From Naegleria gruberi (Eukaryota), in NCBI GenBank assembly GCA_000004985.1, contig GG738856.1: a stretch of 64,000 bases of DNA; one strand, 5' to 3'. Numbering within the stretch: position 1 is the stretch's first letter; every line of letters starts with the position of its first letter. Made by a program: the position numbers and the translations under genes. This document shows, piece by piece, positions 18,201 through 61,337 of this stretch. Under the pieces are notes generated by a model. That model was not told the DNA's origin. It worked only from the letters and a program-made list of their open reading frames with translations, and ran no database searches.

Positions 18201-21200
18201 ATCACTCCTGGTGCTGTTCAAATTGGATCTTCTATTTTGTTAAAGAATAGTTCATTTGACGATTCTGATAAGGATAACCATGCCCCAAGTACATCATCAC
18301 AAGATTTGATCTTGTTGCAATCCTTCTTGAACCCACTCGAAAATATTATGAAATGTATTGAAATGAACTATTTGACTATTGTCAATGGTCCATCTGCTTG
18401 TGGTAAAACTTCTATTGTTAGATTGATTGCTCAAATGACAGGAAATATGTTAAGTGAATTCTCTATGAGTAGTTCCACTGATACTGTCGAACTTTTGGGT
18501 GGTTTTGAACAAGTAGATCCTATTCAAAAAGTTAGAAAGATTGCCAGTTTTATTAAGATTAAGATTGATGAACTCGCCAGAATTGCATTCTTAAATGATG
18601 AAAATCTTAGATTCGATGCTCTTAAGTTGTTGTATAACCAATGGACAACTTATGATGCAACTGCTAAGAAGGATGCTTCATTCTCTGGTATTGAACAATT
18701 GAAGAGTATGTGTGAAACTCTATTCGATAACTTGGAATATCAAAGTGATGAAAAGCAAGCTATTATTCAACAATTGGATAATTTAAGTAAGCTTTTGGAA
18801 ATGGGTGTTAAAGGAAGATTTGAATGGAACGATGGTGTTTTGATTCGTTCTTTGGAAGCTGGTAACTGGATTCTCATTGACAATGTTAACTTCTGTAATC
18901 CAACCGTCCTTGACAGATTGAATTCTCTCTTGGAACCTGAAGGTGTTTTGGTTGTGAATGAAAGAGGTTTGGTTGATGGAGAAATCCGTATTGTTAAACC
19001 ACATCCACACTTTAGAATTTTCATGGTTATGGATCCAAAATATGGTGAAATTTCTAGAGCTATGAGAAACAGAGGTATTGAAATCTCAATGTTCCCAATT
19101 ACTATTCCTTCACAAGATGCTTTTACTCTCTTGGCTAATAATGGTGTACCATCTGCACATTTGTGTAATGTTCTCATGGACTATCACGCTAAATTCACTC
19201 AAAAGATCTTTTTACCAGAAGAAGATCGTCCAACTATTCGTGACTTGTTGAGATGTGCTGAAGTATTCAACTCTGAAGTTAAGCAAGGTTTGAACATTAC
19301 AAATGCTTTCAAGGCTGCTATTTCTTGTGTTTACATTAGAAGTAGATGTTCTTCAAAGTCAGCTGTCGATATTGCTGAAAGTGAATTAGAGGAATGTGCC
19401 AAGCAATTACCAAGAAATGATCATGGATTCCCATCAACATTTGTTGCTGCTAATGCATTCAAGTGCGACAAATCTTTGTTCAGAACAGTTTTTAGACAAT
19501 CTGCCAGATTGTATGATATTATCAGAAATTATCTTAGTCTCAAAGTTGCTGAATCAAATGATCATAATGATAGCACAAAGAAACTTCTTGATTCACTTAA
19601 ATGGAAGATTCTTGTTACTGATTTACCACCTCATTTCTTGCAAACAAATGATGTAGAAAAAACTATCATTTCAGCTGATGTTATGGATACATCTTCAACA
19701 TCAAACTTGATTAATGATATGCAATATGCTTTGGAATACTTTATTGATGTTTCCTCATTCAAAGATATTGATATTAGAGTAATTTGGTTGCAAAGATTAC
19801 TTACTCTTTGTAAATCTGATAAGATTCTTGAAGAATTGTTAACAAAGGGTATTGAATTGTTGAATACGAGAAAGGGTTGTGAAGTTTCAAAGAAAATTCA
19901 AAAGATATTCAAGAATATGCAACAAACAGTCACTCAAAGATTCTCTGAGATTATTGCTTCTCAACCAATGAACTTGAAATATAGCGAGCAATTGTTTGCT
20001 AGACTCCAATATTTGGGATTGATTAACGAACAGGATAATTATGTTTTTGATGCTGCAACTATTTTAACATCTCAACAAAAACGTAAATACGAAGAACAAC
20101 AAAGTATTGCTGTTGAATTCCAAGGTACTATTGTTGAAAATAAGTCTTCATTGCTTCATCAATCATATTATTACCATCTCAATCCAAAACACAGAAGTAC
20201 AGCACCAAACAGAGTTGTTGTACATCTTTATACTTTATTTGTTCAAATTGATGAGCTTGTTGATGCCATTATGAATTCTAAAGTTGACGAATCTGTTTGT
20301 AGTTTGGATGATATTAGTGGCATGTTGAGATGTAGAGACAAGTTGTGGTTCTATTTATCTCATACTGCTGAGCTTTCTGAAGAGTTCTTTATTTATTGGA
20401 ACTGGTTAGCCAAAGAATTCTTAAAGGTTAAAGTCAAGAAGCCTGCCACTTCTGGAAAGAAGAAGAATATTTCTGAAACACCATATGGACTCTATGAACA
20501 ATTATGCACATTCATGGGTGAAATTGATGGTTTGGTTATTAGCAACTTTAACAGTGTTGGAAAGAAGAATACTTTATACAAGAATTGTGGTAAACCTACC
20601 ATTTCTCTTTCAGTTGAATTGAAGGAAATCGAAGATACTATTACTAATTATCTTTCAGTTAATACCTCTTCAAATACTGAATCTAAGGAATTGAAGCAGT
20701 TGGTTTATAATGCTATGAGTACTGTCAAGTTACTTCAACAAGAACCTAATCATCCAGACCAAGAAAAGCTTCTTCAATATGTTAGAACTGTTCCAGAGCT
20801 CTTAGAAAAGGCTAAACCAAAGGAGCAAGAAATTTCTGAAGACGTTTACACACCATACAAGGAATTGGCTACCAAGTCAGAACAAGAACTTGTTATGGAT
20901 AAGATCTTCCGTGATATTGCTGAATTTACTGCTCCTGACAAGAAGCACATCAATGCTGCTTCTTTGCACTCCACACAAGCAATTTCTCCATTGTTTGACT
21001 ATAAGAGTATGCATCATGAAATGAATGTAGTAACTTTGCTTTCAAAGATTGGCTACATTCTTAAACGTCTTGATGCTTCTTCAGATGTTAAGGAAATTAA
21101 GCGTTTATTGTCAACAGCTGTTGCAAAGGGAAGACATTTGATTGACTTTATCTTGCAAAACTGTTCTCGTGGTCCACTTGATCTCGTTCCATATCAATTA

Positions 21201-24200
21201 TTGTTATGGAGAATTTCTAACTTGGAAACAAACTCTGCTGATGAAATTAAGAAGATTGCCTTAGGCATTCCTTCATTGCTTCACTTTGTATGGATTTACT
21301 GGAATGAAAGAGTTTGGGAAAATACCTACAATACATCCATGTTTGAAAATTCTGATTCTACTGAAACTCCAGTTTCGAGAGATGATCTTGCTGGTCCAAA
21401 CAGATTATTCCAAGATGTTAACTCTGTGCACATTTTGAAATTGTTGAGTGGTTGGGAAAATATTCCTATTCGTTCAAGACATATCAAGATTGACCAACTT
21501 AAGAAGGTCGTACAATTCATTTGTACAAATGTTGATAATGTACAATCTGAAGAAGTAGATTGGAATAATCTTGTTTATTTGTATTGTGATACTTTGTTGA
21601 GTTTCAAGAAGAGCTTCCCAGAAGCATCTTTCCAACTCTTGTTAGATATTACTGATTCTTTGTGTGCAACTAAACAAGCTTCCGTCCAAGATCTTACTAA
21701 GATTATTGAATCATCAAATGATGGAAGATTGAAGGCTAAGAAAAATGATATCATTTCTGTTTGCAATCTCATTTGCACAAGAGATGAAGATAAGAATAAG
21801 GATTTGATGAATCGTGGTTTGGCTTGGTTAAAGTTGGGTGAAACTAGAATGAATTTGTTCATTCCAGCCAATTCTTTGGATCCAACTTTGAAGTATGCAA
21901 TTTATGATAAGCATCTCAAGGAAGATATTCAAGTTCTTCAAGGAAAACTTGAAATTATGACTTCTATTGAGCGTTTCATTAGCGGAAGTGGTAGAAATAT
22001 CATTTCTGACAAGATTGAAAAGGATATTACAAATATTCAATCAATTGTTGATAAGATAACTCCAAAGGTTATTAACAGACCAACTAATATTTCATTCATT
22101 GATATGTATCGTGAAATGAAGAGTTTGGCTGACCAACATGAAGTTATCAAGAACTTGTCTAATAGTTTGATAAAGTTCTTTGAAAGTGATAATGATGACA
22201 AGCAAGATATGGTTGCTGAACTTATCAATAAGGAAGAATCCTATCAAGCAAACAGCCACTCTCACATTAAATCAAAGATCTTGAAGAATTCGTTTGGTTT
22301 TGAAGATTTGGCATTGCCATTTGCTTCATCTGCTTATCATATCAAGTACGGTTTGAGATTATTATGTTATGGTTCACTTGCTAAGAAGGATGAGTCTGAA
22401 CAAAATACTGTCAATCAAATTTTGAACCATCTTCTCTCCTTCCCATCTTGTAACTCGGTTCAAACTATTGAAGATGATTTGGCTATCGTTCAACAATGGC
22501 TCAAGTCTATTGAAAACTCTGCCAATACACAATCCAAGTGTAAGCAATATGAAACAGCTACCAAGGTTTTGCGTGTCTTGATGTCCAGATGTTTGTTGAT
22601 TACAGTTTCTCAAACTTCCAGCCAAGACAATACAATCCATAACCTCCAATTATTGAACCAAGTTTTCGTAATGTACTCTAACTTGTTCGAATCTGTTGAA
22701 GATGAACTTGAAAAGAAGAAGGCTGAAGAAGACAACTTCTACAAGTACAAGGAAAGAAAGACAACAATCGAAACTGAAGAAGAAATTTTGGAAGAAGAAA
22801 TGGAAACCATGTTCCCAACTTATAGCGAAGATTATTCTCAATTCAATGCACCAACCGAGGAAAAGAATATTATGAATTTGTCAGAGAAGAAGGAATCCTT
22901 GATATCTGAAAAGTCACTCTTGGAAAGAGTTAACAAGGTTATTCATGATGAAAGAGAAATTGACTACTTGGTTCGTACTCACAAGGATATCTTCTCCTTC
23001 ATCTCTTCCTCTAGTCAACTTAGACCTGTTGATACTATTGACACTATTAGAAATAAGATGTTTGACGAATCCTTTAATGTAGCTGTTCATATCATTAACA
23101 CACTCAACGGAAAATACCAAATTGATATGACTTCTTCAGGATATCTTCCACTTGTTCTTTTCGGAAGTAGAGCATTGAATAATCTCTGGGTTAAGGTTGA
23201 TAATTCAAAGGAAGCTAAACTCAAGGCATACAGTGAAGTTTACACTGAACCAAATATTCCAGAAATTACTCTTGCTTTCAGCACTCTCTTCAGTATGCTT
23301 CAAAGATTGAACTTCTTGATCAAGAAGTACAGTACTGAAGAACAAAAGGGTCACCCAATCCTTGTAGAAATGGTCAAGATTATTGAACATATTCTCAATC
23401 AACCAATTACTAGTCCAATCATTAAGATTCTTACTGGTCTTGAATTAGTATTAATCAAAGCTGGTGAATGGGAAGAATATCTTACAGCTCATGTAAATTC
23501 TTTGAAGGATGAAATTAGAAAATTATCTGGTCTCATTATTAGATGGAGAAGAATGGAATTAGAAAACTGGAAGGGTATTTATGATTTGAAGAATAGAGAA
23601 TACAAGAACAAATCTATTAATTGGTGGTTCAGATTCTACAATATGATTTGTAATAGTAGTTTCAAGATGGAAGAACTCACCAAGATCATTGAAGACTTCT
23701 TTGGTATTTGTGATGACTTTATCAGAACATCAACCATTGGTGACTTTGAATATCGTCTTGGATTGTTGAATAACTTCTATCAACATTTAGCTGCAGAAAT
23801 TGAAAGAAAGTATTCTGATGATGTAGAAGTTAGAACTAAGATTAGAGATATTATTTTCAATTTGCACAAGTATTATTCTCAATTCTCCGGTAAGCTTGAA
23901 GAAAGACTTGACCAAGAAAAGCAACCTTTGGAAACTAAACTCAGAGACTTTATCACTCTCACTAAATGGGAAGATGTAAATATTGATGCCATCAGATTCA
24001 CAACTAAGAAGTCTAGAAGAGCCCTTGCTAAATTCTCTAAAGGTTTTGGTGAAGTTCTCGTCAAACCAGCTAGAGATTTGTGGGACAAGTATGATGAACT
24101 TGCTGCTGCTTCTGAAATTATCCAAGAATCTGAGAAGAAGCCTAAGAGAAAGAGCAAGAATAAGAAGATCAAGAAGAGAAAGAATAAGAAGTTTATTGCT

Positions 24201-27200
24201 GATGAACCAGACGACATTATTCAACAAACTATGAACAGAGGCAAGAATCTTATCAAGAGCCACGAATTTAAGAATTGTCTTTCATATACCAAAAAGGAAA
24301 AGGAATTGCTTTCTGTTATTGAAAAGGAATTTATGGAAGATTCCAAGAATGTTGTAGATAGACTTCCAGTTATTTATGAATTGGTTGGAAAGAACTTTGA
24401 AAACTTGATCATCAAGAGTGCTGTTCCAAAGGAATTTGATGCTGTAACAAGCAATATTGAAGATTTTAGTGTTGAAATTATTGAACAAACCCAACTTCTC
24501 AACAAGGAAAATTCTCCAAAGAGTATGAAATTGAGAGCTCTCGTTACTTTGTTGACAGAACTTAAGGAAATGGGCATTTCCTACTTGAAGAAGAGTGTTG
24601 GATCTGAAACTGCTATTGACAAGATTTTCCAAATTCCAGATGTTGGATTCTCATTGAATAACCTCACTTCAAATGATGTTCAAGAAGTTTTCAAGAAGGC
24701 TGATGACTATTACTTTAAGAACATTTTCAGTGTTCAAAACTTTAAACTCACCTTTGAAGGCGAAGTTTCTGGTGATATCAAGTCTCAACAAACCAAGATG
24801 AGAGGTTATCCAGACAATTTGTTCTTCCTCACAATGAAACACAGAAGAATCTTGGGTACTATTGAAGCAAGCCAAAAAGCTAATAAGTCTTTCCTTTCAA
24901 CCTTGAAACATTTGAAGCAAAGCTTTGAAAATGAAAAGGATGAAGGTGTTATCATTTCACAAAGCAAGGCTAGAGAATTGTTGAATGTACAATCAGGATA
25001 TGTCTTTAGACTCTATGAATTGGTTGCCCAAATCACTTCTCTATACACAGCTCTCTCAAAGCATGATAGTGCTTATGATAAACCTTTGAAGACTATTGAA
25101 GATGCCAAGAGTATCATTGATAGAAGCGTCGATCTTTTAGAAAGAATTATGAATAGAACTCAACTCTTCAGTACTAAGGATTTGAAGGAGCTTTCCGAAA
25201 ATCTCGAGACTTTGCAAAACGCTAGAGGTATTCTCAACAAGTTTGTTTCTGAAACCTCTGATCTTCCAAAATCAAAGGAATTGATTAGTCTTGTTGAAGA
25301 GTTTGATCAAGTCAAAACTACCTATGAATCAATTGTTGCAGAAGAAGCCAGTAATAACAAGTTTGATTTGGCTTCTATTTCATCATTTGCCAAGCTTTAC
25401 AAGCATGCTGTCAAGTCTATTCAATTGACTATCCAAGATTTGGTAAAGGCTTGCTCTGAAGAACAAGTTCAATATGAAGAAACTATGAAATCAGCCTCTG
25501 AAGAACTCAAGAATAGAAAGAAGGAAGATGATGAAGAAGATGACACTTACTCTGCTTCTTACTTGAGCAAGAATAACTCCATTCAAAGACTTGAAGAATT
25601 TATTGATAGATGTCATGGAGTTATCACTACTGGTTTGGCCAAGATTAACAAGGACATTTCTGGAATGATTGAATTCATCGTTGACAATAGTAAGAATTCT
25701 CAAAACATTACAAACAGTCTTACAGAATTGTTGAGTAACTTAGCTCCATTATTGCAAAGATTGGATGGTGTTGTTGATACCCTCAAGATTCCTCTTGTTT
25801 ATTATCACAAGAGTATTTCCAAACTCACTTATGTTCTCCTCAATATCTTCTCAACTTTGTGCAAGCAAGGTTTCTGTGGTAAGGATGACGAAGAACAAGG
25901 TGAAGGAGAAAGTGATGGTGTTGACTTTAGTTCTGGTACTGGTATGGACGATGGTGAAGGTATCAATGATATTGGTGATCAAATTGACAATGAAGATCAA
26001 TTATTGAACGAAAAGGATAAGCAACAACAAGAAGGTAATAAGGACCTTGAAAAGAACGATAATGCTATCGAAATGGACGGAGACTTTGAAGCTGAAAAGC
26101 AAGAAGTTGACGAACAAGAGGATGATGAGGAACAAGATCAAGATGAAGAACAAGATGAAAATAAGGAAATGGGTGAAATAGATGAAGATGATCCAAATAA
26201 GGAACAACTTGATGAAAAACTCTGGGACGAAAATGAAAATGACAGAGATGACAAGACTGAAGAAGGTTCCGATAAGAATGACAATCCTCAACAACAAGAT
26301 AGCGAACTTCAAGCGCAAGAAAATGAAAATGATGATCATCAACAAGATAATAGAAAGGACAAGCAAAAGAAGGATGACAAGCCAATGGAATACGAAGAAG
26401 ATGAAGAAGCTGTTGAACAAGAAGAATTCGAAGATAATATGGATGATAAATTCAATGATGAATTCCAAGACCAAGATAAGGATGGTGAAGATCAAGATGG
26501 AAAAGACAATGATCAACAAATGGATGATTTGGAAATTTCTGAAGATGAACAAGAAGGCGATGAAGAAAATCAAAATGAACAAGAAGGTGATGAAGAAAAC
26601 AAGGATGGTGAAGATAAGGAAGAAGGAGACAATGAAGATGCTGACGGTGATGAAGACTTGAAGAAGAAGAAGGATGAAGAAATTGATGAACAAGTTGACA
26701 CCGAAGATATCGCTCCAGAAGACCAAAATATTAGTGGACAAGATGAAGACAATCAAGATGCTATCGATCCAAACTTGGAATCTGAAAACAAACAAGAAAA
26801 GGACGAAGATGGCAATGATGACGAAGATGGTGAAAAGGAAAATGAACAAGAAGAGGAAGAAAAGGCCCATACTGCAGAGGAAGAAGCTGATTCTAAGGAT
26901 CTCAAAGAAACTCCATTTGGTGTTAAACAAACTGCTGGTAAAGCTTCTGATATTAAGGAAGATTCAGCTGAAAATGAACAAAGACAAGAAAAGAAGAATA
27001 ACAATGCTGAAGAAAGTGGTAAAGACACCAATAAGAATGAAATGGGTGAAAGTATGGATCAAGGTACTGATAATAATGCTGACCAAGAGCCAGAATCCGG
27101 CCAAATGCAAATGGATCCAAATCCTCTCAGAAGCTTGGGTGATGCCATGAAGAATTGGAAGAAGAAGCTCAACCTCGTCGAGAGAAACAAACAAGAAAAT

Positions 27201-28598
27201 GAAAAGAACAAGCAAGATGAAGGTGAAAAGAGCGAAGCTTTTGAGTTTGTTGAAGAAAATGATGCCGATAAGGACCAACAAGAAAATCAAATCTTGTCTA
27301 ATGCCACCGAAGAACAATCTAAGGAGTTCCCAGCAATGGAAGATGGCGAAGAGGATGATGAAGATGAAGAAATGACTGAAGAAAAGAAGAAGGATGAATT
27401 TGGTGAGGAAAAGAAGAAGGACGAAAAGGAAGGTAATAATGCCGACTCAAAGCCAAGTATTTCATCCAAGTTGGATAAGAAATTAGAACAAGACGAAGAC
27501 GAGGATGAAGATATGGAAGATATTCAATTTGAACCTTCAAATAAGAAGGTAGATTTTGTCCAAACCAACTTTGAAAGTACTATCCACACCAAGACTGAAG
27601 CTTTAGAAGAAGAAATTGAGACTGAAGAACCAGAAATTAAACCATTAAGTATGGATGACATTAAGATGATGAGAGAAGAGCTTGAATCATCTCTCAACGA
27701 ATGGAGAAATAATGAAGAAAATGTAAACAATAGTAAGGAAATTTGGAAGAAGTTTGATATTTTGACATCAAGCTTGTCTCAAGAATTGTGCGAACAATTA
27801 AGATTGATTCTTGAACCAACTTTGGCTACTAAACTCAAGGGTGACTACAAGACTGGTAAAAGAATTAACATGAAGAAGATTATTCCTTATATTGCCAGTC
27901 AATTTAGAAAGGATAAGATTTGGCTTAGAAGAACAAAACCAAATAAGAGAGATTACCAAATTCTTTTGGCTATCGATGATTCCAAGTCTATGAATGATAA
28001 CCATGCTGGTCAAATGGCTTGTGAAGCTTTAACATTGATTTCTAGAGCCATGTCACAACTTGAAGTAGGTCAATTAGGTGTTGTTAGCTTTGGTGAAAAG
28101 ATGAAATTGTTACATCCTTTCGAGAAACCATTCACTGATGAAACCGGTGCTGAAATCCTCTCTCAATTCACATTCAAACAAAATCAAACTCAAATTGTTA
28201 ACTTCCTGTCAGATACCATTCAACTTATGGAAAATTACAAGTCTATGGAATTCTCTAACAATAGCGAACAATATCAATTGGCATTTATTATTTCAGATGG
28301 TAGAATGTTAGAAAGAGATAGAATTGTTAAATTGGTCAGAGAAGGACAGGAAAAGAAGATTCTTTTCGTTTTCATTTTGATTGATAATCCAAATCCAAAG
28401 GATTCTATTCTCAATGTAAAGAGTATCAACTCTACTTCAGATCCAAAACAACCATTAACATTTAGTTATTATATTGAAAAGTTCCCATTCCCATTCTACA
28501 TAATTTTGAGAGACATTCAAACTTTACCTGAAGTCTTGGCCGATGCTCTTCGTCAATACTTTGAATTAATCAATCTCACTGCTAATGAACAAGTTTAA
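12249..28598 (+). CDS. MDN1: midasin (MDN1/Rea1), 5449 aa, single 16.35-kb exon
   Basis: Six AAA P-loops in order: GIIGSGKT (12948..12971), GETGVGKT (13965..13988), GPTSAGKT (15279..15302), GDTGTGKT (16152..16175), GSPGVGKT (17412..17435), GPSACGKT (18387..18410). About 560 aa of D/E-rich linker follow. The C-terminal VWA/MIDAS domain has LLAIDDSKSM (DxSxS at 27975..27989), and the tail EFPFPFYIILRDIQTLPEVLADALRQYFEL matches the conserved midasin C-terminus. A short upstream exon is possible (see findings). Confidence 0.95.
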   Translation: MDKLNNNNNTTDSNYDTINAITKILPLYPQFKTFIKQYFKDRPSLIESIVNNHQEDKIDQKQLITLLEITLRLLIFAPSDFCKMWNWSPFFSLLKHKNKDIKSLTSKCVSIILKLDDQFFNSKIDNLKTYVLEEIESEELVHLENTLSFYDDTETSNMETTTEETRDKLIISHKSDSMVNVCGVWLHKNLREIKSSQQNISADKTKLIFTKTSLENMRSLALGVAQENPIILEGIIGSGKTAYVEELARITGNTDLIKVNLDESFDSKDLLGTYVCTDVPGEFRWQPGALTKAVMEGRWILIEDLDLAPFDIISSIIPLVESGNLFLPSRDEIIPASTGFQLFATQSLVESLNGTTTRQRVLPMSNLWTKVRVNKLPSKEIEHILKVKFESIQQLIPKFIETYDALRSGHISDDSEKSEKQSSESTQLKSFGRLFSFRDLLKWCERVQRFYGQKIQKNQNYVLSQIKRDIFHEAIDVFCGMIAKHDIYDSVVGTLALVWEIYNYEEYLKTYKPQLHEEKGVITVGRISLERDEKNLGELLNKNSNFAHTKQSLRMMERVGACIKMNEPILLNGETGVGKTTAVQYLANLMGKKLLVHNLNQQTDSADFIGGYKPVDLKILAASVKSNFEQLFSVTFPSKENEVTLKKVRDLYTKKSWAQFIMMLNKIIDLADQKLSKVDEVVDEKLEEVDSKKRKKTQGSSSGTKKQKTSDKTSTLKQYWTKFKESVDKFNQQQILVQNSFAFSFVEGTLVKALKEGHWILLDEINLASTETLERLSSLLEGEEGTLFITEKGDTEPIKRHPNFRIFACMNPPTDIGKKNLPPGLRNRFSEFYVHELTDKDDLKIVVSRYLSTVPHPPVDDIVNFYLDVKKKSEAELSDGASQRPHYSLRTLTRSLDYAVFVMKDYGMERSLYEGFSMGFLTLLSSACSSTVEKMIRTCFFKQKNVDNSLKQAPSQPASGDFVLFKHFWLPQGQFAPEQPADFIITDTVEENLKNLARAIKTNKYPVLLQGPTSAGKTSMVQYLAKMTGHKFVRINNHESTDLQEYFGSYITNSQGKLVFQEGILVEAVRNGYWLVLDELNLAPSDILEALNRLLDDNRELFIPETQETVKPHPHFQLFATQNPPGLYGGRKVLSRAFRNRFLELHIDEIPRGELVTILHRRCQISNQHAEKLVSVMRELQQRRQSSKIFAGKSNITPRDLFRWAERMKGADEKINYNQNAAEEGFMLLAERLRRDEEKDIVKEILEKVFKTKLDLERMYNPKELDNLQVAGSTIVWTKTMKRMYVLVGKCLQFSEPALLVGDTGTGKTTVCQVYADIYEQHLRILNCHQHTETSDILGSLRPVRGREKLKIELEELIEEFITTANTKYSLDINFGNETSIGKKVKRLEDICKKLAKERKLAEPQKKKQKNEFKEKELLEKQLIIRDIYQKWKALFTWYDGPLVQSMKSGEIFLIDEISLAEDAVLERLNSVLEPSRELTLPERGSEKIESIVAHDKFRILATMNPGGDFGKRELSPALRNRFTEIYVPSLSVSEDLAIIVASKLDQSIKSFNTRMVEFVQFFKSKRTKRLLSVRDVISWVQFMNMAVAKLDMDAYGAFLHGVDTVILESIGVGTDSSAKNRLLLRKECFTFLLDKIAQENVLSTEQLEYYRDVFLNENYTAIRSNKTKESSEYFGYHPFYVKCGESSERKIVYALDAPTTGRNVMKVLRAMQLRKPLLLEGSPGVGKTSLISAIAKASGHNIVRINLSEQTDMMDLLGTDLPVEGSSGGQFRWCDGIFLRALRNGDWVLLDELNLASQSVLEGLNSVLDHRAEIYIPEINETVKCPEGFRIFACQNPLQQGGGRKGLPKSFLNRFTQVYVDELRPEDLTFILNSIHGDIGEENIKLMIDFNRKMHKETMELYRFGRKGSPWEFNLRDVFRWCELLKKERELNKDCTKPIDPMRMIDCMYKQRMRTVEDRKHVERVYKELTGKDFPCETNPTYTITPGAVQIGSSILLKNSSFDDSDKDNHAPSTSSQDLILLQSFLNPLENIMKCIEMNYLTIVNGPSACGKTSIVRLIAQMTGNMLSEFSMSSSTDTVELLGGFEQVDPIQKVRKIASFIKIKIDELARIAFLNDENLRFDALKLLYNQWTTYDATAKKDASFSGIEQLKSMCETLFDNLEYQSDEKQAIIQQLDNLSKLLEMGVKGRFEWNDGVLIRSLEAGNWILIDNVNFCNPTVLDRLNSLLEPEGVLVVNERGLVDGEIRIVKPHPHFRIFMVMDPKYGEISRAMRNRGIEISMFPITIPSQDAFTLLANNGVPSAHLCNVLMDYHAKFTQKIFLPEEDRPTIRDLLRCAEVFNSEVKQGLNITNAFKAAISCVYIRSRCSSKSAVDIAESELEECAKQLPRNDHGFPSTFVAANAFKCDKSLFRTVFRQSARLYDIIRNYLSLKVAESNDHNDSTKKLLDSLKWKILVTDLPPHFLQTNDVEKTIISADVMDTSSTSNLINDMQYALEYFIDVSSFKDIDIRVIWLQRLLTLCKSDKILEELLTKGIELLNTRKGCEVSKKIQKIFKNMQQTVTQRFSEIIASQPMNLKYSEQLFARLQYLGLINEQDNYVFDAATILTSQQKRKYEEQQSIAVEFQGTIVENKSSLLHQSYYYHLNPKHRSTAPNRVVVHLYTLFVQIDELVDAIMNSKVDESVCSLDDISGMLRCRDKLWFYLSHTAELSEEFFIYWNWLAKEFLKVKVKKPATSGKKKNISETPYGLYEQLCTFMGEIDGLVISNFNSVGKKNTLYKNCGKPTISLSVELKEIEDTITNYLSVNTSSNTESKELKQLVYNAMSTVKLLQQEPNHPDQEKLLQYVRTVPELLEKAKPKEQEISEDVYTPYKELATKSEQELVMDKIFRDIAEFTAPDKKHINAASLHSTQAISPLFDYKSMHHEMNVVTLLSKIGYILKRLDASSDVKEIKRLLSTAVAKGRHLIDFILQNCSRGPLDLVPYQLLLWRISNLETNSADEIKKIALGIPSLLHFVWIYWNERVWENTYNTSMFENSDSTETPVSRDDLAGPNRLFQDVNSVHILKLLSGWENIPIRSRHIKIDQLKKVVQFICTNVDNVQSEEVDWNNLVYLYCDTLLSFKKSFPEASFQLLLDITDSLCATKQASVQDLTKIIESSNDGRLKAKKNDIISVCNLICTRDEDKNKDLMNRGLAWLKLGETRMNLFIPANSLDPTLKYAIYDKHLKEDIQVLQGKLEIMTSIERFISGSGRNIISDKIEKDITNIQSIVDKITPKVINRPTNISFIDMYREMKSLADQHEVIKNLSNSLIKFFESDNDDKQDMVAELINKEESYQANSHSHIKSKILKNSFGFEDLALPFASSAYHIKYGLRLLCYGSLAKKDESEQNTVNQILNHLLSFPSCNSVQTIEDDLAIVQQWLKSIENSANTQSKCKQYETATKVLRVLMSRCLLITVSQTSSQDNTIHNLQLLNQVFVMYSNLFESVEDELEKKKAEEDNFYKYKERKTTIETEEEILEEEMETMFPTYSEDYSQFNAPTEEKNIMNLSEKKESLISEKSLLERVNKVIHDEREIDYLVRTHKDIFSFISSSSQLRPVDTIDTIRNKMFDESFNVAVHIINTLNGKYQIDMTSSGYLPLVLFGSRALNNLWVKVDNSKEAKLKAYSEVYTEPNIPEITLAFSTLFSMLQRLNFLIKKYSTEEQKGHPILVEMVKIIEHILNQPITSPIIKILTGLELVLIKAGEWEEYLTAHVNSLKDEIRKLSGLIIRWRRMELENWKGIYDLKNREYKNKSINWWFRFYNMICNSSFKMEELTKIIEDFFGICDDFIRTSTIGDFEYRLGLLNNFYQHLAAEIERKYSDDVEVRTKIRDIIFNLHKYYSQFSGKLEERLDQEKQPLETKLRDFITLTKWEDVNIDAIRFTTKKSRRALAKFSKGFGEVLVKPARDLWDKYDELAAASEIIQESEKKPKRKSKNKKIKKRKNKKFIADEPDDIIQQTMNRGKNLIKSHEFKNCLSYTKKEKELLSVIEKEFMEDSKNVVDRLPVIYELVGKNFENLIIKSAVPKEFDAVTSNIEDFSVEIIEQTQLLNKENSPKSMKLRALVTLLTELKEMGISYLKKSVGSETAIDKIFQIPDVGFSLNNLTSNDVQEVFKKADDYYFKNIFSVQNFKLTFEGEVSGDIKSQQTKMRGYPDNLFFLTMKHRRILGTIEASQKANKSFLSTLKHLKQSFENEKDEGVIISQSKARELLNVQSGYVFRLYELVAQITSLYTALSKHDSAYDKPLKTIEDAKSIIDRSVDLLERIMNRTQLFSTKDLKELSENLETLQNARGILNKFVSETSDLPKSKELISLVEEFDQVKTTYESIVAEEASNNKFDLASISSFAKLYKHAVKSIQLTIQDLVKACSEEQVQYEETMKSASEELKNRKKEDDEEDDTYSASYLSKNNSIQRLEEFIDRCHGVITTGLAKINKDISGMIEFIVDNSKNSQNITNSLTELLSNLAPLLQRLDGVVDTLKIPLVYYHKSISKLTYVLLNIFSTLCKQGFCGKDDEEQGEGESDGVDFSSGTGMDDGEGINDIGDQIDNEDQLLNEKDKQQQEGNKDLEKNDNAIEMDGDFEAEKQEVDEQEDDEEQDQDEEQDENKEMGEIDEDDPNKEQLDEKLWDENENDRDDKTEEGSDKNDNPQQQDSELQAQENENDDHQQDNRKDKQKKDDKPMEYEEDEEAVEQEEFEDNMDDKFNDEFQDQDKDGEDQDGKDNDQQMDDLEISEDEQEGDEENQNEQEGDEENKDGEDKEEGDNEDADGDEDLKKKKDEEIDEQVDTEDIAPEDQNISGQDEDNQDAIDPNLESENKQEKDEDGNDDEDGEKENEQEEEEKAHTAEEEADSKDLKETPFGVKQTAGKASDIKEDSAENEQRQEKKNNNAEESGKDTNKNEMGESMDQGTDNNADQEPESGQMQMDPNPLRSLGDAMKNWKKKLNLVERNKQENEKNKQDEGEKSEAFEFVEENDADKDQQENQILSNATEEQSKEFPAMEDGEEDDEDEEMTEEKKKDEFGEEKKKDEKEGNNADSKPSISSKLDKKLEQDEDEDEDMEDIQFEPSNKKVDFVQTNFESTIHTKTEALEEEIETEEPEIKPLSMDDIKMMREELESSLNEWRNNEENVNNSKEIWKKFDILTSSLSQELCEQLRLILEPTLATKLKGDYKTGKRINMKKIIPYIASQFRKDKIWLRRTKPNKRDYQILLAIDDSKSMNDNHAGQMACEALTLISRAMSQLEVGQLGVVSFGEKMKLLHPFEKPFTDETGAEILSQFTFKQNQTQIVNFLSDTIQLMENYKSMEFSNNSEQYQLAFIISDGRMLERDRIVKLVREGQEKKILFVFILIDNPNPKDSILNVKSINSTSDPKQPLTFSYYIEKFPFPFYIILRDIQTLPEVLADALRQYFELINLTANEQV
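25870..27540 (+). repeat. low-complexity D/E/K-rich linker inside the midasin CDS
   Basis: GAA/GAT/AAG-dominated sequence. It generates the long F/I/L-rich and S-rich antisense ORFs in the six-frame track (for example 26001..26930 minus). Confidence 0.9.
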
Positions 28599-46673: not shown

Positions 46674-48050
46674 TTAATGGAGAATCAACATGCTGGCAAC
46701 AAATACTGCCAAAGCAATTGCTGAAATGAAATTGAAGGAGCCAGAATTTACAGAGCTTGCTGGTTGAATTGGAGTCAATTGAACTTGTTCAACATATGGA
46801 ACAATGTCAACATCCATATCTAAACCTTGGAAAGAAGAAGTGACAACATAGTTGGCATCTGCAAAGTTTTGGTTCATGCATTTGTAGTATTGAGCGAGTT
46901 GTCTTGCACATTTTCCTTTGAAAAGAGTTGATTCAGTATCAATGAAAGTTCTCTTATCATTGGTCAACTTGAATGGCCTTACAAGTCCATATTGATTCCA
47001 CAAACAAGCATCAAAATTGATTCTGAAACCTTCACAAGTAGTCTTCATGCAGGATCCTGATGAAGTGGAGGTAATATTAGATCCTGGGCATAGGCAATAG
47101 TCAACTTCAAGTGACATTTCATTAACAGTGTTATATGAAGGAACACAATCTGTAGAAACTTTACAAGATTTTGAAATCGATGCACAAACGGTATTATTAC
47201 AATAACCACTGAAGCATTCATCATTGGCAGAACATGTCTTTCCATTTAGGACGCTATTTCTTCTGACACATTGATTATTTCTGCACATCATGAGCTTAAC
47301 TCCACTTGGTCCACATTCATTATCACTGACACAATACTCACCTGCAGCTGCAAGCTTGGATTGACAAGTGGATGCTACAGCAGAGGCTGAGGTTTTTCTA
47401 CAGATGCCAACACATGTTTTGTCGCTAGTACATGTCTCACCAATATTCAATGTGGCCACACATTGGTTTGTACTACAAATCAATCCACTTCCACAGACAG
47501 ATAATTTTCCATCCTCAATCATTGAACAATTTGCACCAACAGCAGTCTTGGTGTTTGTGGCCATACAAACAGAATTGTAACAGGTTGAATCAGCTACACA
47601 AGTTGAAATTGTGTAATTGTTAGTTTGCTTAAAGCATACTCCACCAACTGGGAGAGTTTGTTCAACAGTCATAACTCTACACTTTCCAGCATAACAAACT
47701 GAAGGCATGGATCCAGTTAAAACACACTCCGAGTCAGAAATACAATTATCGCCTGTATATCTAGCTTCGGATACACAAATTCCATTTCTACAAGCCATTA
47801 CACTCAAGATGCAGTCAGAGCTCTTAGAACATTGTGTTCCTCTCTTTTGTGTAAAGATATCCGAAATTTTCTTACAAGAGTTGGAATTGAAAACACTTCC
47901 TATTAAACACTTATTACCAGTCTTTCCGTAGAGTGCAATATTATCATCAGAGGCAAAGAATGAGGTACAGCTTTGAGCATTAAGGAAACCCACAAGAGCC
48001 AATGAGCAAATCAACAATAATAAGGTGGCACCAGAAGAGATGTTTTGCAT
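46674..48050 (-). CDS. secreted cysteine-rich repeat protein with a GPI-anchor-like C-terminus
   Basis: Signal peptide MQNISSGATLLLLICSLALVGFLNA. About 60 Cys arranged in repeated C-x(2-4)-D/N-x-EC...C...GKC modules. C-terminal S/N-rich omega region followed by a hydrophobic tail, SGSFNFISAIALAVFVASMLILH. Confidence 0.6.
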   Translation of the reverse strand: MQNISSGATLLLLICSLALVGFLNAQSCTSFFASDDNIALYGKTGNKCLIGSVFNSNSCKKISDIFTQKRGTQCSKSSDCILSVMACRNGICVSEARYTGDNCISDSECVLTGSMPSVCYAGKCRVMTVEQTLPVGGVCFKQTNNYTISTCVADSTCYNSVCMATNTKTAVGANCSMIEDGKLSVCGSGLICSTNQCVATLNIGETCTSDKTCVGICRKTSASAVASTCQSKLAAAGEYCVSDNECGPSGVKLMMCRNNQCVRRNSVLNGKTCSANDECFSGYCNNTVCASISKSCKVSTDCVPSYNTVNEMSLEVDYCLCPGSNITSTSSGSCMKTTCEGFRINFDACLWNQYGLVRPFKLTNDKRTFIDTESTLFKGKCARQLAQYYKCMNQNFADANYVVTSSFQGLDMDVDIVPYVEQVQLTPIQPASSVNSGSFNFISAIALAVFVASMLILH

Positions 48051-58993: not shown

Positions 58994-60741
58994 ATGTCAA
59001 CACCTCCACCTTCCTTCCATCACCATACAAGTCGATACGAAGTTGAAGATGGTTATGTAAATGATGGACTAAACTATTATCATAACGATGAGACATCACA
59101 TAACCATGCGGAAAGTGAAGGTGAATTATCATCCAATTTTTCACATCAAAATTTCTTCCAAACTCCAAATCAACCACAATCACAACAACAATCACAACAA
59201 CAAGAGGATTACTTTTATCCACAACAACAATATTATCCACCTTCTTCTCCTTATTCGTATCAGATTAGACATGCCACATCAACGAATTCTTCACAACAGT
59301 CAACCGAGTCTTTTTTTACATTCATTAATAGATATGAAAAAGATGAAGCAAGAGAGGCTGAAGAACAAGAATCGAAGGGAAAATCAGAAAATGTTTCGGA
59401 TAAAAATCAATTAAATTCTGTTTCGGAAACAAAGGATGATATTTCAATATTGTTGAGAATTTATTCGAGGAGATTTACACCAGAATGTGTTGGGCGTATA
59501 GTTTCGTTTCTTCCAGTTTCTGTGTCATCATTAGTCAGTAAATCCTATCAATTGGGTAAGTTTTTAATTATTTCGAATATATTATTAACTGTTTGTTAGT
59601 TTTTGATGTCACCCATTATAAATCCCTCTATCAATTTGGGTACAATCACTATTATTCGAAACAGAGTGAACACATTTACAAACGTGTCAATGCAACATGG
59701 AAAGAAACTCTATTAGAAATGTACAAGATGCAATTCAGAGAAAAGGAACAAATTTTGTCGAGTAAATTTCCTCATCCCTCTGTAAAACTCACTCAAAATT
59801 TTATGGGATTTGTCAACTCTGAAGATTTATTTAATTTAAAGATTAAGAATGATTTTGAAAATAGAAAATTGAGATTTACAATGATCACCTATGAAAAGTA
59901 TAATACATCTGATATGTTCAAGCTCTTTACAAAGAATAATCAGAACAAAATTTTATTGGATGACAATCTCTCTGTAGAATACGAAATGAATGTAAGTTTG
60001 AAATTATAATTTTCAGTTGACCAAGAATGATTTGTTCAGTATGTTGGATATTTATTACCTGGATCACATGATTTTTCCAATTTTGAAAGTGCAGATGCAA
60101 TTATTTTAACATACAGCGTCATTGATTTTAATTTATTTTACACAATGTCATCGTGGATCAATTTATTGGAAACAATAGCTCCAGATGTTCCTGTAATTTT
60201 ACTTGGCACTCATGCTAACTATAGAAAAGATTCCCATATCATGTCAAAATTGAGAAAGAAGGAACGTTATGTCATGAGATTTATGGAATGTATTGAACTT
60301 GCCAAGAGATTTAATATTCTCTCATATTTGGAAATGGATGCCTGTAACTATGTTGGATATGAAAAGGAGATTTCATCTTGTGAAGAGGAAGAAAAGCATC
60401 ATATTGAACCAAATCAATCCAATCATTCAGAAAATATAATCAATGAAGAATCAGTGCCTTCTCAACAATCAACAACTAATAATGAATCTCAAATCTTATA
60501 TGATGATGACGATGTTCCAATAGAGACAATCATTGATATTTCATCAGAACAAGTACTTACTCCATTTATTGAACTACCAGATAACATCTCCAACCAAATT
60601 CATCAAACTCTAATTGCATCTTCCAAGGCAGCCATTCATTTTGCTCATGTAAATAATGAAATTTCTATCAGAAACTTTTGGAAAGGAACAACCTCTTTCT
60701 ACAGTGAATGTATGCCTTCAAGAAAGTGTTCCATCCAATAA
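58994..60741 (+). CDS. Rho-like pseudoGTPase with an N-terminal Q/P/S-rich disordered region, 3 exons
   Basis: Exons 58994..59555, 59600..59991 and 60040..60741; introns 59556..59599 and 59992..60039, both GTAAGT..AG. The three track ORFs are these exons. Exons 2-3 align to the Rho GTPase fold (DAIILTYSVIDFNLFYTMSSWINLLETIAPDVPVILLGTHANYRKDSH versus [49 protein letters not shown]), but the catalytic motifs are degenerate. The P-loop is absent (KLRFTMITYEKYNTS), DTAGQE is replaced by LPGSHD, NKxD by THAN, and SAK by DAC. Confidence 0.6.
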
Positions 60742-60862: not shown

Positions 60863-61125
60863 ATGCCAGGTAAAGAAGGTGGTAAAGTCAAACCAGTACG
60901 TATTTTGTAGTTCTTTTTTGAAATGCTCACTAATAACCAACTATAATTTGTATGATGAAAATTATTAAAATAATAACAAATATTGATAACGGAAAATAGT
61001 TGAAGAAGCCAAAGAAGGACGACTCTGTTATGGATGAATCTGATGTTGCTTTCAAGCAAAAGCAAAAGGAAGAAGCCAAGGCTCTCGAAAAGGCTAAACA
61101 AGAATTGGCCAAGAAGAAGAAATAA
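60863..61125 (+). CDS. TMA7: TMA7 (translation machinery-associated protein 7) homolog, 2 exons
   Basis: Exons 60863..60895 and 61000..61125; intron 60896..60999 (GTACGT...AG, 104 nt). The product MPGKEGGKVKP|LKKPKKDDSVMDESDVAFKQKQKEEAKALEKAKQELAKKKK resembles MSGREGGKKKPLKQPKK...AFKQKQKEEQKKLE. The six-frame track missed it because of the intron. Confidence 0.8.
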
Positions 61126-61337
61126 ATTATCTTCCTTTTTGAACACCAACGAAATTATATCTGTGCTGAAACATCATATCTTGGCAATTTCTCTTGCCCT
61201 ACATCATCACAAAATAAATTTTCTAGTAGATAAATTTAAATTTAATTAGTGTTGTAACGTTATTGAAATTTAAAACCGGCTTATACAAAACAAGGGAACA
61301 TGACAACAACTTACACACGCAAGTTCATAACAAAAAA

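What the first reader, a model, noticed from the sequence alone, without database searches (positions are those of the whole stretch)
58994..60741. Rho-fold pseudoGTPase: P-loop, switch II, NKxD and SAK motifs all degenerate
Exons 2-3 align along the Rho G domain, including the diagnostic W...P.VP.ILLG...R.D.H block. Every nucleotide-contacting motif is replaced: GxxxxGKT becomes TYEKYNTS, DTAGQE becomes LPGSHD, NKxD becomes THAN, and SAK becomes DAC. It is fused to a 180-aa Q/P/S-rich N-terminus. The gene was split across three ORFs in the track and is joined by two canonical short introns. It is probably a non-nucleotide-binding scaffold derived from a Rho/Rab ancestor.
Basis: partly seen in the sequence, partly recalled or inferred. 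Interest (0 to 1): 0.5.

Follow-up and report, generated by a model that had tools for sequence, protein, structure and literature searches.

The report
Lipid-anchored dead Rho GTPase of Naegleria
This Naegleria gruberi gene encodes a conserved relative of the Rho family of molecular switches that has lost every GTP-binding motif but keeps its membrane-anchor signal. It is a modestly interesting addition to the known "pseudoGTPases" and is already listed in a published catalogue simply as "Rac".

Summary
Window 58994-60741 (+) is a three-exon gene of Naegleria gruberi with GTAAGT..AG introns of 44 and 48 nt. It encodes a 551-aa protein.

- **Motif loss.** No GxxxxGK[ST], DxxG, [NT]KxD or SA[KL] occurs in the G region of any of four orthologues. 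The replacement residues are invariant, and exon 2 has dN/dS 0.085. The gene is therefore constrained, not decaying.
- **Weaker point.** The exact G1 and G3 residue equivalences rest only on a moderate-confidence model.
  - An invariant CaaX box (CSIQ/CTLQ).
  - A conserved helical domain of about 110 aa with weak F-box likeness.
  - The gene is already catalogued as "Rac" (XP_002679688.1; N. fowleri Rac38) in Herman et al. 2021, whose corrected model skips exon 2.

Best reading: a prenylated, nucleotide-free (class i) Rho-derived interaction module, possibly a receptor subunit of an SCF-type ubiquitin ligase. It is a new member of a known kind, of moderate interest.

The parts
58994..59555 (+). 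Exon 1 (aa 1-187 plus the first base of codon 188). Contains the low-complexity N-terminus and the start of the conserved helical domain.
   Evidence: ATG at 58994; the next bases, 59556-59561, are the donor GTAAGT. Collinear with the orthologues.
59312..59335 (+). Conserved short motif FFTFINRY (aa 107-114) inside the otherwise unconserved N-terminus. The orthologues have LFQFINQY, LFSYINEY and LFTFINEY, each followed by acidic residues.
   Evidence: Alignments. Predicted as a helix, at low confidence. Function unknown.
59556..59599 (+). Intron 1, 44 nt, GTAAGT...TTAG, phase 1.
   Evidence: Same position and phase in the metagenome orthologue L001 (37 nt). 55% identity to L003, against 78% in exon 2.
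59456..59628 (+). F-box-like segment (aa about 155-197, LLRIYSRRFTPECVGRIVSFLPVSVSSLVSKSYQLVFDVTHYK), interrupted by intron 1.
   Evidence: Sub-threshold Pfam F-box and F-box-like hits, for one orthologue fragment only (E 0.007, 16.6-16.7 bits). hhalign scores of 23.4 and 27.1 exceed all column-shuffled controls. Tentative.
59600..59991 (+). Exon 2 (aa 188-318). Contains the rest of the helical domain and the N-terminal half of the Rho-like domain (strand 1 to strand 3).
   Evidence: dN/dS 0.085 against L003. 50-52% identical to the orthologues. Omitted from the published corrected model of XP_002679688.1.
59629..59823 (+). Conserved helical linker (aa 198-262). Invariant residues include W221, REKE 234-237 and KFPH 243-246.
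   Evidence: 34% invariant columns among four orthologues. Predicted as long helices (low confidence). No Pfam or PDB sequence match.
59824..60360 (+). Rho-like pseudo-G domain (aa 263-425), interrupted by intron 2.
59887..59910 (+). TYEKYNTS (aa 284-291), at the position of the P-loop (G1) between predicted strand 1 and helix 1.
   Evidence: Placement from AlphaFold secondary structure of the orthologues. No Walker A anywhere in the G region. The segment is 62% invariant. The equivalence is not supported by sequence alignment.
59992..60039 (+). Intron 2, 48 nt, GTAAGT...TCAG, phase 0.
   Evidence: Same position in L001 (38 nt) and in L003.
60040..60741 (+). Exon 3 (aa 319-551 plus the stop TAA at 60739-60741).
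   Evidence: Includes the 198-aa ORF 60145-60741. A 99%-identical strain variant of that ORF was recovered as P0004.
60046..60078 (+). GYLLPGSHDFS (aa 321-331), after predicted strand 3, at the position of DxxG and switch II (G3).
   Evidence: No DxxG in any register. HMMER alignments to Rho proteins place D57 of DTAG at G321 +/- 3 residues. Segment 64% invariant.
60208..60219 (+). THAN (aa 375-378) in place of the G4 motif [NT]KxD.
   Evidence: Lies inside the confident alignment to Rac1 TKLD. GTHA is invariant in four orthologues.
60223..60267 (+). Rho insert region (aa 380-394, RKDSHIMSKLRKKER).
   Evidence: Aligns without gaps to the Rac1 insert. Predicted helical in the orthologue model.
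60337..60345 (+). DAC (aa 418-420) in place of the G5 motif SA[KL].
   Evidence: Confident alignment of EMDAC to Rac1 ECSAL. The orthologues have DAF and DSA.
60361..60576 (+). Acidic, low-complexity insert (aa 426-497), variable in length.
   Evidence: 1% invariant columns. Only about 30 aa in the metagenome orthologue.
60577..60705 (+). C-terminal helices (aa 498-540). The first (ISNQIHQTLIASSKAAIHF) is a candidate for helix 5 of the G domain, displaced by the insert.
   Evidence: Predicted helices with pLDDT about 57-64. S502, Q504 and A515 are invariant. The helix-5 role is an inference; sequence alignment could not test it.
60706..60738 (+). Tail EC.PS.KC..Q, ending in the CaaX box CSIQ (aa 548-551, nt 60727-60738), with a second invariant Cys (C542).
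   Evidence: CSIQ, CTLQ, CTLQ and CSIQ in four orthologues. The tail is 64% invariant.

Best explanation
The locus is a functional three-exon gene of Naegleria gruberi. Its product is a Rho-derived pseudoGTPase.

**Architecture.**
- A disordered N-terminus of about 150 aa.
- A conserved helical domain of about 110 aa, whose first part resembles an F-box.
- A complete Rho-type G fold, Rho insert included.
- A variable acidic insert, two C-terminal helices and a CaaX box.

**Shown.** All four nucleotide-contacting motifs that can be read from sequence (G1, G3, G4, G5) are replaced. The replacement residues are themselves invariant across the family.

**Inferred.**
- The domain no longer binds or hydrolyses GTP (class i pseudoGTPase). 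It works as a constitutive protein-interaction surface rather than a switch.
- The CaaX box ends in Q, so the anchor is most likely farnesyl. With the invariant upstream Cys, it tethers the protein to a membrane.

**More speculative.** The F-box-like segment recruits Skp1/cullin. The protein would then be a membrane-bound substrate receptor or regulator of an SCF-type ubiquitin ligase. This would resemble RhoBTB with Cul3 and the F-box-GTPase fusions already described in Naegleria.
For: **Real, constrained gene.**
- In-frame splicing with consensus sites.
- Collinear orthologues in N. lovaniensis and N. fowleri, and on metagenome contigs from two further species.
- Intron positions conserved.
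- dN/dS of 0.085 for exon 2 and 0.073 for the start of exon 3.

**Rho origin.**
- Pfam Ras above its cut-off.
- The best PDB sequence matches (all 60 rows listed, of 165) are Rac, Rho or TC10.
- hhalign 99.1%, E 1.5e-18.
- In a search of 1.84 billion representative proteins, the family members are followed by matches from E 2.6e-7, each to the C-terminal half of the G domain. Those read are Rho-like GTPases.

**Motif loss with constraint.**
- No Walker A, DxxG, NKxD or SAK in the G region of four orthologues.
- The G1- and G3-equivalent segments are 62-64% invariant, against 1-7% in the inserts.

**Membrane anchor.**
- CaaX is invariant and the tail is 64% invariant.
- Other Naegleria Rac proteins in Table S8 also end in C-a-a-Q.

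**Ubiquitin-ligase link.**
- Herman et al. [quoted passage not shown]
- The family's N-terminal domain aligns in register to 12 such Naegleria F-boxes: hhalign score 27.1, P 6.5e-5, with a shuffled-control maximum of 16.8.
- It also aligns to a set of classical F-boxes: score 23.4, control maximum 19.2.
- One orthologue has LPQDLVIHILTYL and gives sub-threshold Pfam F-box hits.
Against: - Nucleotide binding was not measured. Loss is inferred from motifs only.
- The N-terminal half of the G domain is not aligned confidently by any sequence method. It is modelled at pLDDT 51-77 only.
Its alignment contained Rho fragments for the C-terminal half, so that half resembles Rho partly by construction.
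- The F-box evidence is weak.
  - Three of four family members give no Pfam F-box hit even at E 10.
  - A profile search of PDB sequences found no F-box protein.
  - hhalign probabilities are only 36-64%.
  - The canonical LP and the helix-3 Trp are mostly absent.
  - Herman et al. did not flag an F-box for this gene or for N. fowleri Rac38.
- The G domain shows no special affinity to the F-box-Rac paralogues.
- No expression data were available.
Confidence: 0.7

Rival explanations
1. A membrane-tethered decoy or scaffold with no ubiquitin-ligase role. The nucleotide-free Rho-like surface binds Rho regulators or effectors (GEF, GAP, GDI, kinases) or other partners. The N-terminal helical domain is a family-specific interaction or autoinhibitory module, not an F-box.
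For: - The Pfam F-box models fail for three of four members, and a profile search of PDB sequences finds nothing.
- Herman et al. did not annotate an F-box here.
- The G domain does not cluster with the F-box-Rac paralogues in HMM scores.
- Class i pseudoGTPases such as AAGAB act through protein-protein interfaces (PMC12490416).
Against: The in-register hhalign matches to two independent F-box alignments exceed all shuffled controls. The fusion of an F-box to a Rho domain with a CaaX box is a recurrent Naegleria architecture.
Confidence: 0.25
2. The domain still binds a nucleotide or another small ligand or metal in a non-canonical way. The invariant Tyr, Glu, Lys, His and Asp residues that replace the G motifs (YEKY, PGSHD, THA, EMD) would form the site, so it is a re-tooled rather than empty pocket.
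For: - The replacement residues are as conserved as the structural core (62-64% invariant). This suggests a functional site rather than mere filling.
- In THAN, the Asn replaces the base-specificity Asp. From general knowledge, the same Asp-to-Asn change in Ras (D119N) and EF-Tu (D138N) shifts specificity to xanthine nucleotides.
Against: No glycine-rich loop, and no Lys/Ser-Thr pair in the P-loop register, remains to hold phosphates and Mg2+.
Confidence: 0.12
3. Only the C-terminal half (strand 4 to strand 6) is Rho-derived. Residues 263-330 are an unrelated segment, so the protein does not contain a complete G fold.
For: Sequence and profile methods align only Rac1 residues 72-168 with confidence. 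Three different registers for the N-terminal half came from different programs.
Against: - AlphaFold gave the canonical order (strand 1, helix 1, strand 2, strand 3, helix 2, strand 4) in two runs, for two orthologues, even though no Rho sequence covered that half in either alignment.
- The length from the domain start to strand 4 fits a G domain.
Confidence: 0.1
4. A decaying paralogue or pseudogene in the very large Naegleria Rho family. The motif loss would reflect relaxed selection.
For: N. gruberi has more than 80 Rho genes, with signs of birth-and-death evolution in the GTPase families (PMC8296547, Supplementary Material 4).
Against: - The reading frame is intact in five species.
- dN/dS is 0.07-0.09.
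- Intron positions are conserved.
- The degenerate motifs are identical between lineages that are only 43% identical overall.
Confidence: 0.02

Closest known systems
Canonical Rho-family GTPases (Rac1, RhoA, Cdc42); Naegleria 'Rac' paralogues
   Same: - G fold with the Rho insert.
- The block W..E....P..P.ILVGT..DLR.D.
- A C-terminal CaaX box.
- Already catalogued as 'Rac' (XP_002679688.1) and as N. fowleri Rac38 in PMC8296547 Table S8.
   Different: - G1, G3, G4 and G5 are all replaced.
- The switch I and switch II regions are shorter.
- An insert of about 70 aa follows strand 6.
- An N-terminal extension of about 260 aa.
Class i pseudoGTPases (AAGAB psGD, CENP-M, p190RhoGAP pG1/pG2)
   Same: - G fold retained with the G motifs lost.
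- Conserved in evolution.
- Expected to act through protein-protein contacts (PMC12490416, PMC5593906).
   Different: - This protein is clearly derived from within the Rho family, and Rho sequence similarity is still detectable.
- It keeps a prenylation signal.
- Nucleotide binding is untested here.
RhoBTB (atypical Rho domain fused to BTB domains, a Cul3 adaptor), also present in Naegleria
   Same: An atypical Rho-like domain in a multidomain protein linked to cullin-RING ubiquitin ligases. This is an analogy of architecture (PMC8296547, Supplementary Material 4).
   Different: - No BTB domain (Pfam).
- The extra domain is N-terminal here and only F-box-like.
- RhoBTB lacks a CaaX box (general knowledge).
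- The Naegleria RhoBTB sequences shown in Table S8 still carry GxGK-type P-loops.
Naegleria F-box-Rac fusion proteins (e.g. XP_002678060.1, ACER01000078.1, ACER01000821.1 models in PMC8296547 Table S8)
   Same: The order N-terminal F-box, helical linker of about 100-150 aa, Rho domain, C-a-a-Q/M box. The family's N-terminal segment aligns in register with their F-boxes.
   Different: - Most of those paralogues keep GDGAxGKT, DTAGQE and TKxD.
- Their F-boxes pass domain searches.
- There is no closer sequence affinity in the G domain.
Rnd1-3 and RhoH (Rho-family pseudoGTPases that bind GTP but do not hydrolyse it)
   Same: Rho-family members that do not cycle as switches and are farnesylated (general knowledge). 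Rnd1 appears among the Foldseek matches.
   Different: Those proteins keep the P-loop, NKxD and SAK motifs and stay GTP-bound. Here the binding motifs themselves are gone.

Membership tests
Rho family of small GTPases | Ras-superfamily G-domain fold (six-stranded sheet, five helices) | tested here: met
Rho family of small GTPases | Rho insert between strand 5 and helix 4 | tested here: met
Rho family of small GTPases | G1 P-loop GxxxxGK[ST] | tested here: not met
   Absent from the G region of all four orthologues. The position is occupied by the invariant ITYEKY.T.
Rho family of small GTPases | G3 DxxG / switch II with the catalytic Gln | tested here: not met
   No DxxG in the G region in any register. 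The segment reads GYL.P..HDFS.
Rho family of small GTPases | G4 [NT]KxD | tested here: not met
   THAN (THAS in the metagenome orthologue) sits at the confidently aligned position of Rac1 TKLD.
Rho family of small GTPases | G5 SA[KL] | tested here: not met
   DAC, DAF or DSA at the aligned position of Rac1 SAL.
Rho family of small GTPases | C-terminal CaaX prenylation box | tested here: met
   CSIQ, CTLQ, CTLQ and CSIQ. Prenylation itself was not tested.
Rho family of small GTPases | Guanine-nucleotide binding and hydrolysis | not testable with these tools
   Needs a biochemical assay.
Class i pseudoGTPase | G fold retained, with no nucleotide binding and no catalysis (definition as used in PMC12490416) | tested here: inconclusive
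   The fold is met by prediction, and all binding motifs are lost. Absence of binding is inferred, not measured.
Class i pseudoGTPase | Evolutionary maintenance, i.e. not a pseudogene | tested here: met
   dN/dS 0.085, five species, conserved introns.
F-box proteins (SCF substrate receptors) | F-box domain recognised by PF00646 or PF12937 at the gathering threshold | tested here: not met
   No hit for the N. gruberi, N. lovaniensis or metagenome sequences at E up to 10. One orthologue fragment scores 16.6-16.7 bits, against cut-offs of 20.5 and 24.3.
F-box proteins (SCF substrate receptors) | Profile-level similarity to F-box alignments | tested here: inconclusive
   hhalign probabilities of 36% and 64%. 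Scores of 23.4 and 27.1 against shuffled-control maxima of 19.2 and 16.8. One of the two reference alignments was written from memory.
F-box proteins (SCF substrate receptors) | Binding to Skp1 | not testable with these tools
   Needs a pull-down or a complex prediction.
RhoBTB | Tandem BTB domains C-terminal to the Rho domain | tested here: not met
   No BTB hit in Pfam at E up to 10.

The most novel reading that the evidence does not exclude
A farnesylated F-box protein whose substrate-recognition module is a nucleotide-free Rho fold. This would be another independent marriage of an atypical small-GTPase domain with a cullin-RING ligase, after RhoBTB-Cul3 and Rab40-Cul5. Here the switch has been abolished entirely. 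The former nucleotide pocket is lined by invariant Tyr, Glu, Lys, His and Asp residues, and would have been re-used as a binding site for a substrate, metal or other ligand at a membrane.
Probability: 0.2. Interest if true: 0.55.

Novelty: new member of a known kind. Interest (0 to 1): 0.35.

Why it matters
- **A gap in the known pseudoGTPases.** To my knowledge, the Rho-family members called pseudoGTPases (Rnd1-3, RhoH) still bind GTP. A Rho-derived domain that has lost all binding motifs but is kept under strong selection, with its lipid anchor, would be a natural test case. It would show what a G fold can do without nucleotide, and which Rho surfaces are used when switching is gone.
- **Relevance to Naegleria.** The genus has a very large Rho family and many GTPase-F-box fusions of unknown role. 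This family is shared with the pathogen N. fowleri (Rac38).
- **Annotation.** The three-exon model restores 138 residues missing from the published corrected N. gruberi model. These include half of the G domain.
- **Limits.** It is one lineage-restricted paralogue, and its function is unknown.

Tried and rejected
I modelled the orthologues instead.
2. The first AlphaFold run, with 5 alignment rows, gave pLDDT 36. Only its secondary-structure order was used.
3. MAFFT alignments that included full-length Rho proteins scattered their N-terminal halves and misplaced the exon-1 fragments. Those rows were dropped for the second model.
4. Three alternative registers for the N-terminal half of the G domain were considered:
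   - P-loop at TYEKYNT;
   - switch I at TYEKY with DxxG at DDNL;
   - P-loop at NDFENRK.
   
   Sequence methods cannot decide between them. AlphaFold favours the first.
5. A profile search of PDB sequences with the N-terminal domain found nothing relevant.
6. A word-indexed search of 5.8 billion proteins with the family profile added no new full-length members.
7. Searching with the N-terminal domain at a permissive E-value was not possible, because the limit is 10.
8. The afdb50 fold library was unavailable.
9. The bacterial promoter/terminator scan is irrelevant to this eukaryote.
10. Testing whether the first C-terminal helix is helix 5 by hhalign, after removing the insert, was uninformative.
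11. My early impression that the gene is unannotated in N. gruberi was wrong. It is XP_002679688.1.
Full report
**Source.** An ORF elsewhere in the window (46677-48050, minus strand) is identical to Naegleria gruberi XP_002679829.1. The window is therefore N. gruberi nuclear DNA (GC 32%). Bacterial-style ORF lists split its genes at introns.

**Gene structure.**
- The three ORFs at 58994-59599, 59593-60009 and 60145-60741 join through two introns, 59556-59599 (44 nt) and 59992-60039 (48 nt). Both start GTAAGT and end AG. The result is a 1656-nt reading frame of 551 codons plus a stop.
- The spliced protein aligns end to end, across both junctions, with N. lovaniensis C9374_000632 (542 aa) and an N. 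fowleri protein (547 aa) at 41-43% identity.
- A search of 1.84 billion representative proteins with the family profile found only fragments of the same family, then matches from E 2.6e-7 to the C-terminal half of the G domain; those I read are Rho-like GTPases.
- Two of those fragments lie on one JGI metagenome contig (L001). From it I rebuilt a fourth orthologue of 440 aa. Its introns of 37 and 38 nt sit at exactly the same codon positions and phases.
- A 939-nt contig from another Naegleria species (L003) covers exon 2 and both introns. Exon 2 is 78% identical at the DNA level with one in-frame indel, while the introns are about 55% identical. Exon 2 has dN/dS 0.085. Exon 2 is therefore coding.
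- This matters because the manually corrected model of this gene (XP_002679688.1) in Herman et al. 2021 joins ...VSVSSL directly to YVGYLLPG. That skips exon 2 and, with it, half of the G domain (PMC8296547 Table S8).

**Rho homology.**
- Pfam's Ras family matches residues 333-429 (25.8 bits, E 8.9e-6, cut-off 21.6).
- The 60 best PDB sequence matches listed (of 165) are Rac1/2, RhoA/C or TC10 (best E 3.4e-6). They align without gaps through the Rho-specific insert.
- A profile of the four orthologues against a small Rho alignment gives hhalign probability 99.1%, E 1.5e-18.
- All of these align only Rac1 residues about 72-168, that is strand 4 to strand 6. The N-terminal half has alignment confidence near zero, and different programs proposed three different registers.

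**Structure.**
- With five alignment rows the model was poor (pLDDT 36).
- For the second run I added nine Rho fragments that cover only the C-terminal half. The N. lovaniensis model then reached pLDDT 80-91 for residues 321-410, 77 for strand 1, and 51-59 for the rest of the N-terminal half.
- Both runs gave the same canonical order of secondary-structure elements. The sequences below are from the second model (N. lovaniensis P0001):

| Element | Sequence |
|---|---|
| Strand 1 | KYKFTVIT |
| Loop | YEKYN |
| Helix 1 | TKDILTEFNK |
| Strand 2 | SIL |
| Strand 3 | TVQYEMNFV |
| Helix 2 | FSLFAE |
| Strand 4 | AIILTYN |
| Helix 3 | NLFYTLSSWINLLEMV |
| Strand 5 | VILVGT |
| Insert helices | ANLRK, SHILSQLKD |
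| Helix 4 | AMDCVQLAKR |
| Strand 6 | SYFE |

- Foldseek against the PDB returned only Rho-family chains in the top 50: E 2e-9 to 4e-8, 152-167 aligned columns, TM 0.57-0.68 on the target.
- The fold is therefore a whole Rho-type G domain, with two caveats. It is a predicted model of an orthologue, and the C-terminal half was helped by Rho rows in the alignment.

**Motifs.**
- In the confidently aligned half, [NT]KxD is THAN (THAS in the metagenome orthologue). SA[KL] is DAC, DAF or DSA.
- No GxxxxGK[ST] and no DxxG exists in the G region of any of the four orthologues.
- Its placement of DTAGQE at LPGSHD is within about three residues of the HMMER alignments to several Rho proteins. That equivalence cannot be fixed more precisely.
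- The replacement residues are not drifting. Among four sequences that are only about 43% identical overall, invariant columns are distributed as follows:

| Segment | Invariant columns |
|---|---|
| G1-equivalent | 62% |
| G3-equivalent | 64% |
| G4-equivalent | 53% |
| Acidic insert | 1% |
| Rho insert | 7% |

- This pattern, together with dN/dS below 0.1, excludes a decaying pseudogene.

- *Membrane anchor.* All orthologues end in a CaaX box (CSIQ or CTLQ), inside an invariant tail EC.PS.KC..Q.
  - From general knowledge, X = Q favours farnesylation, as in PDE6-alpha CCIQ.
  - The upstream invariant Cys is a candidate palmitoylation site.
- *N-terminal extension.* It is not only low complexity.
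  - After about 150 poorly conserved residues comes a conserved helical domain (aa about 150-262; 32-34% invariant columns).
  - Within those first 150 residues there is one conserved short motif, [LF]F.[FY]IN.Y followed by acidic residues.
- *F-box likeness.* The first part of the helical domain, R[RL]..[DE].V..I.S[FY]LP[VL]S..[ST]L.[SC]K.[FY], resembles an F-box.
  - Pfam F-box models hit only one orthologue fragment (LPQDLVIHILTYL), and below threshold (E 0.007).
  - A profile search of PDB sequences found nothing.
  - hhalign against nine classical F-boxes, written from memory, scored 23.4 (P 3.7e-4, probability 36%). All 150 column shuffles scored lower (maximum 19.2).
  - hhalign against twelve F-boxes of Naegleria GTPase fusion proteins, taken from the supplement of Herman et al., scored 27.1 (P 6.5e-5, probability 64%; shuffle maximum 16.8).
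  - Both alignments are in the expected register.

**Literature.** Herman et al. 2021 (PMC8296547, Supplementary Material 4 and Table S8) catalogued the Ras-superfamily genes of N. gruberi and N. fowleri.
- They report more than 80 and nearly 50 Rho genes, respectively.
[quoted passage not shown] They suggest GTPase-dependent ubiquitination.
- This gene is in their table as 'Rac' (XP_002679688.1, corrected model). Its N. fowleri one-to-one orthologue is Rac38, 'Rho family GTPase'. Neither carries a note about an F-box or degenerate motifs.
- The gene is therefore known and filed under Rho. In the library available to me, its pseudoGTPase character, the complete exon structure and the possible F-box are not described.

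**Interpretation.**
- *Shown.* This is a conserved, intact, selected gene. It is Rho-derived and has a predicted complete Rho fold. All sequence-readable nucleotide-binding motifs are absent. It retains a CaaX box.
- *Inferred.* It does not bind GTP, which would make it class i in the sense used in PMC12490416. It is farnesylated and membrane-bound, and acts as a constitutive interaction module.
- *Speculative* (I put it at about one in three). The N-terminal domain is a divergent F-box. The protein would then be a membrane-anchored SCF receptor or regulator, analogous in logic to RhoBTB-Cul3.
- *Rivals.* A scaffold or decoy without a ligase link; a re-tooled ligand or metal pocket; a partial G fold only; a pseudogene (rejected).

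**Verdict.** The finding is a new member of a known kind: a pseudoGTPase, here derived from inside the Rho family, in a lineage already known for exuberant GTPase diversification. The gene is restricted to Naegleria and close relatives as far as the databases show. Interest is moderate.

Noticed in passing
window 58994-60741, compared with PMC8296547 Table S8: The published 'manually corrected' protein for XP_002679688.1 joins ...FLPVSVSSL directly to YVGYLLPG. It therefore omits residues 181-318, which are the last seven codons of exon 1 plus all of exon 2. Exon 2 is under strong purifying selection (dN/dS 0.085) and is present in the N. fowleri and N. lovaniensis proteins. The protein searches did not return any N. 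gruberi record for this gene.
   Followed up: yes
window 59312-59335 (aa 107-114): A short conserved motif, [LF]F.[FY]IN.Y followed by acidic residues, sits in an otherwise unconserved, disordered N-terminus. It is present in all orthologues, including the fragment P0008 and the contig L003. It fits the core aromatic-x-x-aliphatic pattern of Atg8-interacting motifs, but that is only a resemblance.
   Followed up: no
window 60864-61130 (+): A small two-exon gene for a TMA7 homologue (MPGKEGGKVKP|LKKPKKDD...) lies immediately downstream. Pfam TMA7 gives E 3.9e-14. Its intron is roughly 60894-60999.
   Followed up: partly
window 12249-28598 (+): An uninterrupted 5449-codon ORF encodes a midasin (MDN1/Rea1) homologue: six AAA_5 units and the midasin AAA lid domains (AAA_5 E 3e-121).
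   Followed up: partly
L001 1-5605 (JGI metagenome 3300002220 contig MLSBCLC_10058470): A 7.3-kb environmental contig (GC 37%) carries a complete orthologue. The orthologue is about 43% identical to each Naegleria protein and has 37-38-nt introns. The contig apparently comes from an uncultured heterolobosean. A RING-finger (zf-C3HC4_3) gene lies upstream, on the opposite strand.
   Followed up: partly
proteins P0010, P0014, P0033 (hits): Several of the best non-family hits are proteins with two tandem Rho-like domains. One of the two domains has a degenerate or missing P-loop. Their origin is unknown. They suggest that partial loss of G motifs in Rho paralogues is not rare in environmental eukaryotes.
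   Followed up: no
window aa 495-515 compared with aa 160-180: MAFFT repeatedly aligned the F-box-like segment (FTPECVGRIVSFLPVS) with the C-terminal helix (ELPDNISNQIHQTLIAS; MPPELSQQIYHIIRGS in the orthologues). Both have an LP-x-E/D...I...L pattern. This may be coincidental.
   Followed up: no
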